Below, piece after piece: positions 31,301 to 43,300 of a DNA stretch of 64,000 nt. This stretch comes from an uncultured Nitrospiraceae bacterium (lineage in GTDB: Bacteria > Nitrospirota > Thermodesulfovibrionia > Thermodesulfovibrionales > Dissulfurispiraceae): positions 1 to 64,000 of the forward strand of contig CAVPIW010000019.1 of NCBI GenBank assembly GCA_963705105.1, in the 5' to 3' direction. The position numbers are program-made. How positions within the stretch are numbered: the first letter of the stretch is position 1; each line of letters opens with the position of its first letter.

Positions 31301-34300
31301 GCGGCGACGTGTGATAGAGGAAGTGCCTGCCCAGGTCCGCCCCGGGTGGAATGACGGCGAGGCTGACGGAGAGGGTACCGGAGTTGAGAATCGGGAAGAC
31401 CCTGACCCCGTCTTCAAGCGCAGGGGGCTTCGACAAGACTTTGTCCCTTGGGAAAAGCCACGGCGCCGTCTCTTCCCTGCTTCCCTCCAGGAAATCCCCC
31501 GGCTTGACGGCCACGGCGGCGCACAGCTGGAGGAATGAGCTCAGGGACGGGCTGATCTGATTGTTTTCGAGCTGAGAGATGAAACTCGGTGTCAGCCCGA
31601 CCTTGACGGCGAGCTCCTTCTGGCTCATGCCCCGCCTCGTCCTCATCTCCCTGAGCCTGCCGCCGATATCGGTGGCGGGCTCCCGCTTCTGGGACGTGAT
31701 GGTCGCCATATCTTGCGTGATCTCGTACAGGTGGGGCTTGAAGGCCTCGCGGTCCTGTCGTCCCGAGAGTTTCAACGCCTTGATGAAGAGCTTTTCCTTT
31801 CTCTTGTAGAGATCGATGACGACCTGCGTGATGTGCCGCAGATTGGCCTTGAAATTCTGGCTATGAGCGTCCTTGTCCAAAATCCAGTAGGCGACGGTAT
31901 CGAGATCGAAAAGCCTCGGGCACATGTACGTGAAAAACTTGTATGTGCTGTTCTCGTCACCCCAGAGGTCCTGCATCCCCGTGAGGCTGTCGAGGACATA
32001 CCGTGTGCCTGCGGGGACATCGTCCTCGATGGATGTGAGGATGCGGGTGAACTCTTCGATGTTCTTCGGGTCGTTGACGCGGATCGTCCTGACGTTTCTC
32101 TCCCTTTCGTAATACTTCAGGAACGTCGGATCGTTCTTTCCCTTGCCCGACGTGAAGCAGTCGATGAGGATGAAGTATTCCGGTGTCAGGTACGGCGCGA
32201 TCTCGTTGATGATGCTCTGAGGCGACCTGTTGAAGCTGACGTAGATGACTTTCTGGGATTCGCTGTTGGACTGGCGGACGAAATTCTTGACGAATATGTC
32301 GTAGGCCGTCCCCGAGTCCACCTCCCATACGACATTATCGCCGATATGGAGTGAGTCGATAAGACTGTCGAGCGATGGTATTCCTGATGAAATATTAGCC
32401 ACGGTAAACGGCAACCTACTGTTAAGTACTTCAACTATAAATGAGTGCCCCTTCCTTTGTCAAGTAATACTTAACGCCAATCGTGTGGCTTAAAATATAT
32501 TAGAATCAATGAGTTGACAAAGTTGTCGCCTTGCCTTTACTATGGAGTAGGAATTATTGTCACTCGGCAATCGGTTACCGTCGGCGTCTATCCCTCCGTC
32601 TGGGCATAGACGCTCTTTTATGTGGAGACGGGTACAGTGAAACTAACAAAAGGATAAAAGAGACCCTCATGGACCAACGAAGCGCCGGACTCAACCTCTC
32701 CATCTTTTTTTGCCAGCAACTGGACCCGGATCAGGATGTCAACAGGCGGGCCCTTGAAAAAGAACTCGGCAAACGCATCAGGTTCTTCCCCCTGCCCTGC
32801 AGCGGCCGGATCGATCCCCTCCACCTCATGCGTGCCCTCGAATCGGGGGCGGACAAGGTCTATCTCGTCACCTGTCCCGAAGGGGCTTGCCAATACCGCG
32901 AGGGAAACATCAGGGCGCGGAAACGTGTCGCCCATACGCAGACATTGATCGAAGAGATAGGGCTTGAGAGGGACCGCATCGAGCTGATCCTGTCACCGCC
33001 GGGCCCCGTCGCTACGGTTGATGAACTGGCGAGGGGACTCCTGGCCCGGGAGGCGACGGTCGGGGCATCTCCGGTGAGGGACAGGGAGACAGTAGGTAAT
33101 AGATAGTAGTCAATAGTCAGCAAGGAAAATTTCGTACTGGATATAAAAGGAGTGTGGGCATGATTACAGCAGAAAGAAAACCTTTGGAGGAAATCAGGGA
33201 GATGCTGGCGCCGTACAATAAGATCCTGGTGGCCGGTTGCGGCTCCTGCGTGGCCGAGTGCGCCTCAGGCGGAGAGAAGGAGGTGGGACTCCTCGCCTCG
33301 GCGCTCCGCATGGATGCAAAGATGTCCGGCAAAGACCCGGTCATTGACGAAATAACGCTGGACCGCCAGTGCGTCTATGAATTCATCGACGAACTGACAG
33401 GTCTTGTCGACCGTTACGACGTCGTCCTGTCCCTCGGGTGCGGCGCCGGTGTGCAGGCCGTGGCGGAGGTCTTCCCGAAAGTCCCCATCGTTCCCGCCCT
33501 CAACACGACTTTTATAGGGCAAACGAAGGAAGCGGGCCTGTGGATCGAAAACTGCAGGGGCTGCGGCGACTGCAAGCTCGGCTTTTTCGCAGCCGTCTGC
33601 CCCGTCACCCGCTGCGCAAAGGGACTCTTCAACGGCCCCTGCGGAGGGTCCCAATCCGGTCTCTGCGAGGTCGACCCGGACGTGCCCTGCGCGTGGCAGC
33701 TGATCGTGACGAGACTGGAAGACACGGGCCGCCTTGGCCTCCTCAGGGCGGTTCATCCGCCTGCTGACTGGTCGAAGCAGCAGGGGAAGGGACCGAGGAA
33801 AATCTACAGGGAGGATCAGAGAGCGTGAAGACAGGAAGCCGGCTCAAGGAAGTGCTGCAGAAGGGAGAGTTTGCCGTTACCGCCGAATGCGGTCCGCCCA
33901 AGGGGGCCGACCCGGAGGTGGTGAAGAACAAGGGAAAAATCCTCAGGGAATACACCGACAGCGTGAACGTCACGGACAACCAGACAGGCGTGGTCCGTCT
34001 CTCCAGCCTTGCCGCCTGTGCCTTGCTGAGGCAGGAGGGGATCGACCCGGTGCTCCAGATGGTCACCCGTGACCGCAACCGCATCGCGCTCCAGTCGGAC
34101 ATCCTGGGCGCCTCCGCCCTCGGCATACGCAATATCCTCTGTCTCTCCGGCGATCACCAGTGCTTCGGCAACCAGCCCCAGGCAAAGGGCGTCTTCGACA
34201 TCGACTCCATCCAGTTGATCCAGGCAGTCCGGCACATGAGAGACGCCGGTGAGATCATCGGGGGAGAGAAACTGACGGAGCCGCCAGACCTCTTCATCGG

Positions 34301-40300: not shown

Positions 40301-43300
40301 CATCTCCGTCGATGCGCTGCTGACCGTCGACGGAGTGAAACGCAAACCGGAGGATGTCTACCGCACCATCGCCGCCGTCAAGCTCTCGGTCCTCTCGGCG
40401 AGCACGGCCCTTGCCATGAACGAGGAGTGGGTGGAGGCGGAATAGCGAGGAACGATTTCCTTTTTCAGGAACAAACGGACGGGGTCGGTGATTGCACCGG
40501 CCCCGTTTTTTTCATCGTCGTGTACCACAAAAAAAATCCGGCAGACACGGGGCATAGAAGGATTAAAGGTTCCCTGTTATACCACCTTGGATCTCCTGAG
40601 GGCAGTATAAGCCTGATCGGCCGATTTCCGAGGGGCCGCTTTTCTCTTGTATCCCGATCTAGTATGATAAGAGTATGAATATCGAAAAACTCATTGCCAT
40701 AGAGGACCCTGTGAAGCGGAAGGCGATGTTCATGGCCATTTTTTCGAAAGAAGTGGCCGGCCGAGGGGGCGCCCCTCCCATAATCGTGGGCGGTGAGGCC
40801 GTAGAGCTTTACACCCAGGGAAGTTACACCACTGGGGACATAGACATTAAATCCCCTCCGGACGTGACAGAAGCCATTCTGAAGGAATGGGGATTCCTCC
40901 GGGCCGGCAGGACTTGGCTCAACAAAGAGTTGGACATATACATAGACTGGCTTGGAAGTTCACTGGATGAGGGTGAGGAGGCCGAAAAGAGGGTCACTAC
41001 CATAAAAATAGCGGAAGGACTCGAAGTCAAGGTTGTTTCCATGGAAGACCTCATTATCGACAGACTCAGCGCCTTCAGACGGTGGGGAGACACGGATAGT
41101 CTGATGTGGGCAAAGGTTCTTATCAATGTAAAGACGTCCATCGATAGCCTCGATGACAACTATCTCAGAGAGAGGGCAAAGAAAGCAGACCTCTTGAATC
41201 TGCTCGAAGAAATCCTTGCATCGGGTGGCTGATATATGGAAATAGCCTATGACAGATTGAAGAATATTGCATCAGAAGTCAGGGCGGAACTTGTGTTGAA
41301 AGGAACTATCGATGTCTCCGGGGGGAAGATACGAAAGAAACCGAGAAGCAAGGAAAAGACGGAATTGCTTTATACCATTGCCATGGAAAGAATGGTGAAA
41401 TATCGACCGCGCAAGGAAGATGACAAGATCATCCTCCCTTATTTTCTGCCGGGCGAAGAAGAGATGCCGACTCAATTGTAAACTTCTCCGACTTTCCGGT
41501 CGGGGGTATTCTAAACGTTCAACTTGTGATCTATCTTCTCTTCTCATTTTGTCAAGGTTCAAGGGCTTACCCCTTTTCGTTTCCTAAATGCCGAGAATAG
41601 AATAGAGCAAGGGCTCTGCATATTTCTGTCACCTCTTCAATTATTCGCCGAACGTTCGCGTTGAGCGGTGCGCCGCTTATCGGCGCGTCCGTTTTCGAAC
41701 GCGCGGGCAAGCCTCAGCATCACCAGTTCTGTACTATTCCCCAATCAACCGTCCCGGGATATTATCCTTTCCTTTCGTCGCGACGACAACAGGAAAAACT
41801 CCGGTATTTACTCTGCCGGTGTCATGCGATGCGCCAAGGTGACATGCTCTGAAATGTGTCATAAGGACCACGAATGTCGGATTTCCACTTCCTTATGCGT
41901 CATATGACATTGACAATATGTCAAATGACGCATATAATAAAATAACAACCTGAATCTTTCTTATAGCGGGGTTATACAATGACAGCTGCGGCTGAAAAAG
42001 AATTGAATCTGGAACAGAAGGCCCTCACGATCCTCGGGATGAGATTTCCGGCGGTTCGCGCGGTGTTCAGGGGCGACCTTGCGCAGAGCGCCCCCAAAAG
42101 CTGGGAGGACATAACCGGTGAGCACCTTGATCTGATGATCAGACGTGGACTCTCTGTGGATGCGCTTGAAAATCTCCGCACCAGCCTCGGTGTCCCACAC
42201 GCGACTCTGGAAGAACTGCTCGGAACCAGCAGGAGAACGCTCCAGAGGGCAAGGAAAGAGCACAGACGGCTGTCCCCGGTGGAAAGCGACCGCGCATACC
42301 GCCTTGCCAACGTCTTTGCACTCGCCAGCGCGGTATTCGAAAACGAAGAGGCGGCCAGGGCATGGCTGAAAACTCCGCAAATCGGGCTGGGCGGCAAAGT
42401 GCCCTATGACCTCATCCATACGGAGGTCGGCACGAAGGAGGTCATCGAGCTGCTGAAAAGGATCGAATACGGCGTCCTTGCGTGATACCCGCCTGGCGAC
42501 TGGTCAAGGAGAAATACGCCCCGGAGGCCCTCAGCGGCTTTGGCGGCCAGATGGTGTCGGGCAGGTGGCATCACGCCGGGGTGCCCATCGTGTACGCAGC
42601 GGACAGCCTCGCCCTTGCAGCCCTTGAAATATTCGTGCACCTGCCTCCCGGTGCTCACGGCATGAAGTTCGTTGCCGTCAAGATCGAAATACCCGAAGAT
42701 CTTGAAATCCATGCCCCAAAGGTCCCGCATAACTGGAGGGACACCCCCTCTACTGATTCAACGAGGACACTCGGAACGACCTGGTTCCACGGAGCGCATA
42801 CAGCCGTCATGAAAGTCCCCTCGGTTATTGTCCCTGTGGAGAACAATTACATCCTTAATCCTTCTCACCCGGACTTCAGGAAGTTGATAATTCATCCCCC
42901 CTTGCAGTTCAGCTTCGATCCCAGGATGTGGAAGTAGCAAGGGATGCAGGGGTGTCACCCATCAATACGGCCCTGGCACTATGGGCCTGAACCGCTGTAA
43001 ATATGATATCATTTTGAAAAGTGGATCGAGAGGTGAATATGAAAGCTAAATTGAACATGATCTATTGGAAGGGTGATAAATTCTGGGTGGGCAAATTACT
43101 TGAGCATCCGGAAATAATGACACAGGGAGAAACGCTGGAAGAACTCGAAGATAATATGAGGGATGCTTATATAATGATGACAATGGAGGATGTTCCCGAG
43201 AAATATAAGGTCAAGAAACTTGAATTGGCAGTATGAAGAGGAAAGACCTTATCAAGAGGTTAACCGATGAAGGATGCCTTCTCGCACGACATGGCAGCCG

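What a model noticed while it worked through the whole genome (the two positions that open the first line are those of the whole stretch)
32669..40445. Conserved mvhD-metV-metF-glutamate synthase operon: a methylene-THF reductase module tied to a split glutamate synthase [...]
Six co-oriented genes encode a divergent MvhD, MetV, MetF, two ferredoxin-FMN-barrel glutamate-synthase subunits (one degenerate) and an amidotransferase-GXGXG fusion, with no HdrA. The block is conserved across Nitrospirota, Syntrophales and other Desulfobacterota and lies in nitrogen-regulated context, which points to an undescribed glutamate synthase wired to the MvhD-MetVF electron module.
Evidence so far: Of the best 80 of 209 loci carrying the degenerate subunit g03877, mvhD is present in 72, metV 74, metF 75, the second FMN subunit 78 and the amidotransferase 72, mostly in this order; a P-II gene is near in 29; mvhD stays directly before g03877 even where metVF moved. 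MvhD has C44, C69, C74 invariant and C15 nearly so; g03877 keeps invariant Fe-S cysteines. The genome has a separate metF-metV-mvhD-hdrABC block (C5:131739-138561) and a second glutamate synthase operon. The leader carries an exact NrpR-type operator.
(Added by a program. Inside this text positions count along the whole contig: contig position 1 is position 1 of the stretch shown here. "Call 12" and the like, gene names such as g00115 and contig names such as C1 are that model's own, and its searches are not shown. The text may have been shortened before it was handed on; [...] marks where a part breaks off. The agent that wrote the report below was given it as the finding of a first reader that could run no searches.)

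Follow-up and report, generated by a model that had tools for sequence, protein, structure and literature searches.

The report
Glutamate synthase wired to folate reductase
Six genes of a sulfate-reducing bacterium most likely build an undescribed form of glutamate synthase (the enzyme that puts ammonia-derived nitrogen into amino acids) that takes its electrons through an iron-sulfur adaptor from a methyl-folate enzyme instead of from NADPH.

Summary
The catalytic FMN subunit and the amidotransferase keep their active-site motifs. The degenerate subunit keeps 12 Fe-S cysteines and has lost the catalytic motifs. Relatives fuse these parts, up to one chain, so they probably form one enzyme. The slot before the degenerate subunit holds either a divergent MvhD or an FAD-oxidase-ferredoxin, never both. 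A co-folding model docks this MvhD on the degenerate subunit (0.61, best control 0.00). In a related clade carrying HdrCB-HdrL, MetF has lost its catalytic Asp (kept in 0 of 62), whereas 115 of 116 window-type MetFs keep it. This points to glutamate synthesis as the terminal sink and to methyl-THF as the donor here (about 50%). Against this, 8 close relatives keep an intact MetF with hdrCB just downstream. No Methanococcus-type NrpR operator lies in the leader; a different conserved palindrome does. Ten literature searches found no description. The scan has noted this system before in at least 24 other genomes. Nothing is tested biochemically.

The parts
32514..32543 (+). sigma70-like promoter (TTGACA-18-TACTAT); a divergent promoter-like site lies at 32463-32434 on the - strand
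   Evidence: consensus match only; the same TTGACA..TAT(A/T)AT spacing precedes the leader in relatives
32565..32580 (.). conserved palindrome CGGCAA-N4-TTACCG just downstream of the -10 box; candidate repressor operator (NrpR possible, not shown) or RNA hairpin
   Evidence: 18 of 135 mvhD leaders against 1.6 in shuffles
32584..32618 (+). leader hairpin followed by a U-tract (attenuator-like); a near-identical hairpin precedes the genome's second glutamate synthase operon (5774-5800, - strand)
   Evidence: fold z-score -2.7; no Rfam match
32669..33106 (+). MvhD' (145 aa): divergent [2Fe-2S] adaptor; keeps four Cys and lacks the ADxAG segment of HdrA-bound MvhD
   Evidence: (ADxAG in 0 of 81); co-folds with the degenerate subunit
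33160..33828 (+). MetV (222 aa), Fe-S subunit of MetVF
   Evidence: PF12225; 13 Cys kept in at least 96% of 139 rows
33825..34748 (+). MetF (307 aa), methylene-/methyl-THF oxidoreductase with an intact active site (E21, D110, Q190, H282)
   Evidence: role of the Asp from PMC9900621
34762..36141 (+). degenerate subunit (459 aa): 2x[4Fe-4S] domain, a non-catalytic paralogue of the glutamate synthase FMN barrel and a four-Cys cluster motif; proposed electron-entry port
   Evidence: Z 24.5, rmsd 3.1, 302 residues aligned to the FMN domain of 1ea0
36254..37774 (+). catalytic synthase subunit (506 aa): 2x[4Fe-4S] domain, FMN barrel and four-Cys cluster motif
37794..40445 (+). class II amidotransferase (pro-peptide, GCG nucleophile motif at C37, HNG, TDTE) fused to GXGXG beta-helix (883 aa)
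   Evidence: all three motifs in 182 of 189 relatives
40477..40508 (+). intrinsic-terminator-like hairpin closing the operon
28007..32414 (-). divergent nitrogen cluster: KaiC-like ATPase-HTH-cupin regulator (31125-32414), a stand-alone Glu_synthase-family protein (29411-30997), NrpR (28308-29339) and P-II (28007-28348); context, not part of the enzyme
   Evidence: the same genes recur beside the block in L003, L081-L083

Best explanation
The operon encodes a glutamate synthase (glutamine + 2-oxoglutarate + 2 electrons -> 2 glutamate) of an undescribed build. The amidotransferase releases ammonia. The catalytic FMN subunit forms and reduces the imine. A duplicated, non-catalytic barrel carrying three Fe-S clusters acts as the electron port, and MvhD' plugs a donor module into that port. 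In this genome the donor module is an intact MetVF, most likely run in the oxidative direction: methyl-THF -> MetF flavin -> MetV -> MvhD' [2Fe-2S] -> degenerate subunit -> catalytic subunit clusters -> FMN -> glutamate. This would spend -200 mV electrons of the Wood-Ljungdahl folate pool on nitrogen assimilation instead of NADPH or ferredoxin. Shown: genes, motifs, fusions, co-occurrence. Modelled: the MvhD'-degenerate subunit contact. Inferred: the MetV-MvhD' contact, the direction and the donor. My odds are about 0.85 for a glutamate synthase with a modular electron port, and about 0.5 for the whole statement including methyl-THF as donor.
For: (1) Catalytic subunit: E210, Q227, K249, Q252, K255 and four cluster Cys are kept in 129 of 129 MvhD-type and 50 of 50 FAD-type rows; R275, E296 and K317 in 128 of 129 and 50 of 50. 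They align with A. brasilense E886, Q909, K931, Q934, K937, R957, E978 and K999 (roles recalled). (2) One enzyme: degenerate and catalytic subunits are fused in 44 of 302 distinct loci. P0114 and P0148 are single chains of FAD oxidase-ferredoxin-degenerate-FMN-amidotransferase-GXGXG, in the operon's order. (3) Exclusive donor slot: 56 distinct FAD-oxidase loci hold no mvhD, metV or metF; the one apparent exception was a spurious 115-aa opposite-strand hit. (4) Co-folding of MvhD' with the degenerate subunit: score 0.61, best of 3 controls 0.00. The mark was reached by 116 of 157 solved and 2 of 215 mismatched pairs (rough here, since my own alignments were used). Runs agree in at least 89% of contacts; partner pLDDT at least 79. 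The interface joins MvhD' 16-59 to residues 83-90 and the cluster loop 384-392. (5) Hdr-carrying operons have two MvhDs, a canonical one after HdrL and the divergent one before metF-degenerate (L239, L240; L279, L314, L316, L317). (6) In that clade MetF has lost the catalytic Asp (0 of 62, plus 0 of 14 contig-edge loci), so it probably cannot be a folate sink there and electrons likely pass the MetV/MetF hub to the synthase. Window-type MetF keeps the Asp in 115 of 116 (PMC9900621). (7) No NAD(P)H-binding subunit lies in the operon, MetVF lacks an NADH site (PMC8760232), and the genome's HdrA-like proteins lack the GltD-like insert. (8) The host has Wood-Ljungdahl genes and DsrA. AcsB is in 42 of 50 genomes with the six-gene block, against 30 of 50 FAD-type and 22 of 50 Hdr-clade genomes (MAGs, kin not independent). 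(9) Energetics allow it: about -26 kJ/mol (-200 mV from PMC8760232, other values recalled).
Against: Nothing is assayed. Eight close relatives (L013, L018, L019, L021, L022, L025, L048, L051) keep an Asp-intact MetF and have hdrC-hdrB right downstream; in six of them an HdrL with the NAD(P)H insert follows. There NAD(P)H could feed both MetVF and the synthase. These eight were counted among the 116 window-type rows. Purified MetVF enzymes take electrons from reduced ferredoxin (PMC8760232), and both barrel subunits carry ferredoxin domains that free ferredoxin could reduce. metVF is missing from the locus in 22 mvhD-only loci, although MetV is found elsewhere in 16 of 19 such genomes. The MvhD-HdrA complex is solved, so the co-folding pass may partly reflect likeness. 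The MetV-MvhD' contact was not modelled. AcsB is common in the phylum (116 of 201), so 8 of 8 carriers being AcsB-positive is weak. The substrate of the FAD oxidase is unknown, and five Thermoplasmata FAD-type loci have a GltD-like gene nearby. The genome also has an NAD(P)H-type glutamate synthase and a GDH-family gene.
Confidence: 0.5

Rival explanations
1. Branched wire. Electrons enter from reduced ferredoxin or from an Hdr module (HdrL in cis in some relatives, an Hdr complex in trans here) and go to two sinks: methylene-THF reduction at MetF and glutamate synthesis at the FMN subunit. The MetVF would then be a reductase sharing a wire with the synthase, possibly with HdrA-type bifurcation.
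For: Intact MetF with hdrCB downstream in 8 close relatives, six with an insert-bearing HdrL. Type II MetVF uses ferredoxin in vitro and type IV uses HdrA (PMC8760232). Both barrel subunits have ferredoxin domains.
Against: The window genome has no HdrA with the NAD(P)H insert, and the operon has no canonical MvhD. The Hdr clade lost the MetF catalytic Asp while keeping the gene, which fits a relay rather than a second sink. No MetH or MetE domain was found in the 99% complete genome, so a nitrogen-regulated methyl-THF supply has no obvious biosynthetic consumer.
Confidence: 0.3
2. Co-regulated but separate enzymes: a ferredoxin-dependent split glutamate synthase and a type II MetVF that happen to share an operon.
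For: MetF copies next to the degenerate gene do not form one clade apart from the Hdr-linked C5 MetF. metVF moves or is absent in some loci.
Against: MvhD' is replaced one-for-one by an FAD oxidase that can be fused to the degenerate subunit. A non-catalytic MetF is retained beside the degenerate gene in the Hdr clade (78 of 78 loci have metF). The co-folding result places MvhD' on the degenerate subunit.
Confidence: 0.1
3. An N-methyl amino acid enzyme like MgsABC (N-methylglutamate synthase), with MetVF handling the methyl group.
For: MgsABC has the same three split domains (PMC6237917), and folate enzymes fit C1-amine metabolism.
Against: All 6 neighbouring glutamine synthetases tested are type I (above the TIGR00653 cut-off, below TIGR03105), whereas GmaS is type III. 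Among gene clusters seen in at least 4 of 164 loci, read by their first residues, I recognised no mgd or methylamine methyltransferase genes. MgsC is 442 aa with no ferredoxin domain listed (PMC6237917).
Confidence: 0.06
4. Reverse, catabolic direction: glutamate oxidation drives methylene-THF reduction.
For: The redox couples are close.
Against: About +12 kJ/mol uphill (recalled potential). The amidotransferase is intact, and the neighbours (glnA, amt, P-II, NrpR) are those of assimilation.
Confidence: 0.04

Closest known systems
NADPH-glutamate synthase GltBD (Azospirillum brasilense 1EA0/2VDC/6S6S; Bacillus 7MFM) and ferredoxin-GltS (Synechocystis 1LLW/1OFD)
   Same: Amidotransferase, FMN synthase barrel and GXGXG domain; aligned active-site residues.
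   Different: Split and reordered (amidotransferase fused to GXGXG); ferredoxin domains on both barrels; a four-Cys cluster motif; no GltD; an extra cluster-bearing copy of the FMN domain that matches residues 782-1193 of 1EA0, not the central domain.
Split ('archaeal-type') glutamate synthases, including the putative F420-dependent forms with FrhB (PMC9012536, passage) and the genome's own GXGXG-GltD type at window 586-5694
   Same: Separate amidotransferase and ferredoxin-FMN subunits with a donor subunit encoded alongside.
   Different: The donor module is MvhD'-MetVF, HdrCB-HdrL or an FAD oxidase, and it docks through a second, non-catalytic barrel.
Type IV MTHFR MetFV-HdrABC-MvhD of Moorella thermoacetica (Mock et al. 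2014, as summarised in PMC8760232 and PMC5861303)
   Same: MetV, MetF and an MvhD-type [2Fe-2S] link to a larger flavin/Fe-S partner.
   Different: No HdrABC in the operon; MvhD' lacks the ADxAG segment; the partner is a glutamate synthase; the proposed direction is methyl-THF oxidation.
N-methylglutamate synthase MgsABC (PMC6237917)
   Same: Three split glutamate synthase domains.
   Different: MgsABC is listed without ferredoxin domains or a second barrel and sits with a type III GmaS and mgdABCD; here the tested neighbours are type I glnA.

Membership tests
Glutamate synthase (GOGAT) | class II amidotransferase with N-terminal Cys nucleophile and oxyanion motif | tested here: met
   GCG, HNG and TDTE motifs in the window and in 182 of 189 relatives; pro-peptide cleavage is inferred
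Glutamate synthase (GOGAT) | FMN barrel with the 2-oxoglutarate/FMN residues and a cluster motif | tested here: met
   the motif has four Cys instead of three, and D1070 is S
Glutamate synthase (GOGAT) | GXGXG beta-helix | tested here: met
   PF01493, 51.8 bits
Glutamate synthase (GOGAT) | glutamine- and 2-oxoglutarate-dependent glutamate formation | not testable with these tools
   needs an assay
NADPH-GltBD | GltD/NAD(P)H-binding beta subunit and a single-chain alpha subunit | tested here: not met
   no Pyr_redox domain in the six proteins; PRK11750 score 201 against cut-off 1047
Type IV MTHFR (MetFV-HdrABC-MvhD) | hdrABC in the gene cluster | tested here: not met
   absent from the window block; hdrCB present downstream in 8 of 80 close relatives
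Type IV MTHFR (MetFV-HdrABC-MvhD) | canonical MvhD (CxxC..ADxAG) | tested here: not met
   ADxAG in 0 of 81 operon MvhD'; present in the C5 copy and the second MvhD of L239 and L240
MetVF-type MTHFR | MetF with catalytic Glu/Asp/Gln and a Cys-rich MetV | tested here: met
MetVF-type MTHFR | methylene-/methyl-THF oxidoreductase activity | not testable with these tools
   needs an assay
N-methylglutamate synthase MgsABC | linked type III GmaS | tested here: not met
   6 of 6 neighbouring synthetases tested are type I; the genome's only PF00120 match was not typed
N-methylglutamate synthase MgsABC | placement of the FMN subunit with MgsC in a tree | not tested
   no MgsC sequence was fetched
NrpR regulon | GGAA-N6-TTCC operator (Methanococcus consensus, recalled) in the leader | tested here: not met
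   a different conserved palindrome is present and its binding by NrpR was not testable

The most novel reading that the evidence does not exclude
A widespread, unrecognised class of glutamate synthase has a duplicated Fe-S barrel that serves as a socket for interchangeable donor enzymes. In this version it is a methyl-THF:2-oxoglutarate (glutamine-amide) oxidoreductase. It would use the -200 mV methyl-folate pool for nitrogen assimilation, and in HdrL-carrying relatives it would be the high-potential arm of an HdrA-type electron-bifurcating complex.
Probability: 0.45. Interest if true: 0.88.

Novelty: new variant of a known kind. Interest (0 to 1): 0.74.

Why it matters
From my own knowledge, glutamate synthases are classed by NADPH, NADH or ferredoxin as donor, with F420 proposed (PMC9012536). 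A form fed by methyl-THF would be a new donor class and a direct redox link between the Wood-Ljungdahl pathway and nitrogen assimilation in energy-limited anaerobes. It would give MetVF a physiological partner other than ferredoxin, RnfC2 or HdrA, which is an open question in acetogen bioenergetics (PMC8760232). The degenerate subunit is abundant (at least 577 matches in a capped genome scan; 5303 clusters at E<=1e-100 among 8000 scored). Its source names are 'ferredoxin', 'glutamate synthase-related' or 'hypothetical', so the system is easy to miss. The catalytic-Asp contrast and the modelled interface give specific mutants to test.

Tried and rejected
GGAA-N6-TTCC operator: chance level. Rfam: no match. 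ANTAR protein: none found in the genome, but the control rang nowhere, so this is uninformative. The idea that the degenerate subunit equals the GltB central domain: its model matches the FMN domain best. Profile comparison of MvhD' with the degenerate subunit: no homology. The A1 profile did not return HdrA from the PDB, although one relative's ferredoxin domain matched HdrA 563-640 weakly. My first MetF comparison used a filter that kept only 22 Hdr-clade rows; one search replaces it, and the Gln190 change seen did not hold (Q in 25 of 62). The idea that Hdr genes are added only where the Wood-Ljungdahl pathway is missing: suggested by 0 of 4, weakened by 22 of 50. An IQ-TREE run did not finish. 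The FastTree of the catalytic subunit needs 3-4 donor-module changes but has an unreliable one-row root. RNA data: contigs of four soil metatranscriptomes from one study cover parts of metF, both barrels and the amidotransferase, and one bridges metF and the degenerate gene; they show neither level, strand nor a single transcript. Plasmid collection: only distant matches. undercounts mvhD, because some divergent copies scored best against the canonical query.

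
Full report
Observation. The six ORFs are present and tightly packed (metV and metF overlap by 4 bases; gaps 13, 112 and 19 bases), between a sigma70-like promoter at 32514-32543 and a terminator-like hairpin at 40477-40508. Pfam gives MvhD, MetV, MetF, two ferredoxin + Glu_synthase proteins (48.6 and 302 bits) and an amidotransferase-GXGXG fusion. No NCBIfam equivalog cut-off is reached. The host is a 99% complete genome with DsrA, a full acs/cdh cluster, Fhs, FolD, a nif region (recognised by eye), one glnA, a GDH-family gene and a second, GltD-fused glutamate synthase at window 586-5694. 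No MetH or MetE domain was found. Its closest loci are Nitrospirota.

The core is one glutamate synthase. The 506-aa subunit aligns with A. brasilense GltB 879-1170. The aligned catalytic residues are invariant or nearly so in 129 MvhD-type and 50 FAD-type rows. The amidotransferase keeps its three motifs in 182 of 189 relatives. The 459-aa subunit has lost the GGMS, QGAK and GGTG motifs but keeps 8 ferredoxin cysteines, 4 barrel cysteines and an almost invariant segment at 128-153. Its model (pLDDT 83) matches the FMN domain of GltB best (Z 24.8 and 24.5). The two barrels are fused in 44 of 302 distinct loci. P0114 and P0148 carry all parts in one chain in the operon's order; P0132 is a partial chain of the same kind. 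Neighbours recur as nitrogen genes: glnA in 54 and amt in 43 of 164 loci (named from their sequences); 6 of 6 glnA tested are type I.

The degenerate subunit is an electron port. What stands before the degenerate gene falls into exclusive types. Type A is MvhD' with MetV and MetF, as in the window. Type B is a GlcD-like FAD oxidase with a 2x[4Fe-4S] domain, separate or fused to the degenerate subunit, found in Syntrophus, Smithellaceae, Anaerolineae, Thermoplasmata and others; its usual EHG motif (recalled) reads PYG. Type C is mvhD'-metF'-degenerate-FMN-amidotransferase-hdrC-hdrB-hdrL-mvhD-metV. None of 56 distinct type B loci holds mvhD, metV or metF. A FastTree of the catalytic subunit needs 3-4 changes of module; the root is unreliable.

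MvhD' is a dedicated adaptor. It keeps four cysteines in 82 of 82 rows but lacks the second Cys and the ADxAG segment seen in solved MvhDs and in the genome's C5 copy. Type C operons carry both kinds: the canonical one after HdrL and the divergent one before the degenerate gene. Co-folding MvhD' with the degenerate subunit scored 0.61 (runs 0.61, 0.64, 0.49) against 0.00 for the best of three controls. The mark was reached by 116 of 157 solved and 2 of 215 mismatched pairs, the runs agree in at least 89% of contacts, and partner pLDDT is at least 79. The interface uses the replaced helix of MvhD' (22-35) and P43, against residues 83-90 and the cluster loop 384-392. This supports binding and does not show it; solved MvhD-HdrA complexes may bias the model.

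Direction. Window D110 aligns with T. thermophilus D109, the Asp described as essential for folate binding and activation (PMC9900621, passages). It is kept in 115 of 116 type A MetFs (Glu in one) and in 0 of 62 type C MetFs (57 Tyr), plus 0 of 14 contig-edge members, while E21, R82 and H282 are kept in all type C rows. A retained MetF that probably cannot turn over folate, placed between an NAD(P)H-type HdrL and the port, is most simply a relay, which makes the synthase the terminal sink (inference). In the window the operon's only donor-side active site is the intact MetF. MetVF has no NADH site (PMC8760232, passages), and no HdrA with the GltD-like insert exists in the genome. Methyl-THF at -200 mV can drive the reaction by about -26 kJ/mol (partly recalled values). 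AcsB is in 42 of 50 type A, 30 of 50 type B and 22 of 50 type C genomes, and in 17 of 19 mvhD-only genomes. These are subsets chosen by hand from MAGs of unknown completeness, and kin are not independent.

Results against. Eight close type A relatives have hdrC-hdrB directly downstream with an intact MetF, six with an insert-bearing HdrL; they were inside the 116. So NAD(P)H can sit next to the intact form, and a branched wire with two sinks remains open. Free ferredoxin could also feed the ferredoxin domains. AcsB is common in the phylum (116 of 201), and only 8 of 201 genomes carry the system. MetF copies of type A are not one clade apart from the Hdr-linked copy.

Regulation. The leader lacks GGAA-N6-TTCC. 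It has a palindrome right after the -10 box (18 of 135 leaders, 1.6 expected), then a hairpin with a U-tract that is repeated before the second glutamate synthase operon. Nitrogen control is plausible from the neighbours but not shown.

Comparison and novelty. It works like a glutamate synthase and meets the testable domain criteria. It is not a GltBD, not a type IV MTHFR, and lacks the GmaS link of MgsABC (PMC6237917, passages). Literature searches returned no description of this pairing. I read passages only of PMC5736913, PMC7325909, PMC7117923, bioRxiv 10.1101/2024.10.14.618325, PMC10553843, PMC9012536, PMC8760232, PMC9900621, PMC6237917 and PMC5861303. The other hits were seen as listings, and no supplements were opened; a gene table in a supplement could mention the cluster. 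Subscription papers are not covered. The scan's own notes hold 25 similar findings in at least 24 genomes. I read them after forming the reading and do not count them as support; they led me to examine the Hdr form, which I then tested.

Verdict. Real, widespread and apparently undescribed: a new variant of glutamate synthase with a modular electron port. Methyl-THF as the donor in this genome is my best reading at about 0.5. Interest 0.74.

Noticed in passing
window 29411-30997 (-): A 528-aa Glu_synthase-family protein with no amidotransferase or GXGXG partner lies between the HTH-cupin regulator and nrpR; tandem pairs of it occur in L003, L081 and L082. Function unclear.
   Followed up: no
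window 31125-32414 (-): KaiC-like ATPase-HTH-cupin protein. The same N-terminal domain is fused to a PEP-synthase-like domain (about 860-890 aa) or to a sigma54-activator-like part (about 770 aa) beside many of these operons; a candidate nitrogen sensor.
   Followed up: partly
mvhD leaders of L006-L009, L014, L015, L017, L024-L026, L028, L029, L046, L053, L057, L060 and others: A second leader class (GGCAC-N6-GTGTC, then a GGCGTC..GACGCC-U-tract hairpin) in 23 of 135 leaders against 2.6 shuffled. It resembles ANTAR dual-hairpin antitermination leaders (recalled).
   Followed up: partly
G000 C5:133492-133884: The Hdr-linked canonical MvhD has an in-frame TGA at a cluster-ligand position, probably selenocysteine.
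   Followed up: no
L198, L199, L201, L206, L220: Thermoplasmata FAD-oxidase-type loci carry a 486-490-aa GltD-like gene a short way downstream, a possible NAD(P)H input.
   Followed up: no
L241 (G242:C11): hdrA-like, hdrC-like, mvhD, metV, metF, then a second mvhD before the degenerate gene; this MetF has Glu for the catalytic Asp.
   Followed up: partly
L018, L019, L021, L022, L048: A conserved ORF of about 120 aa of no tested family sits between hdrB and hdrL downstream of the operon.
   Followed up: no
P0033, P0054 and similar hits: A more distant group of degenerate subunits with a remodelled N-terminal ferredoxin region (fewer cysteines); hosts and context unknown.
   Followed up: no
window 36150-36240 and near 5990-6050: A short repeated intergenic element (CTTTGCGACTTTGCGTGAG-like) between the two barrel genes and upstream of the second glutamate synthase operon; relatives lack it at the first place (joint 36133-36245).
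   Followed up: no
window 40675-42937 and 27332-27800: Small gene pairs that look like toxin-antitoxin modules (nucleotidyltransferase-like, RES-like, HicAB-like; resemblance recalled, and the two ORFs scanned gave no Pfam hit).
   Followed up: no
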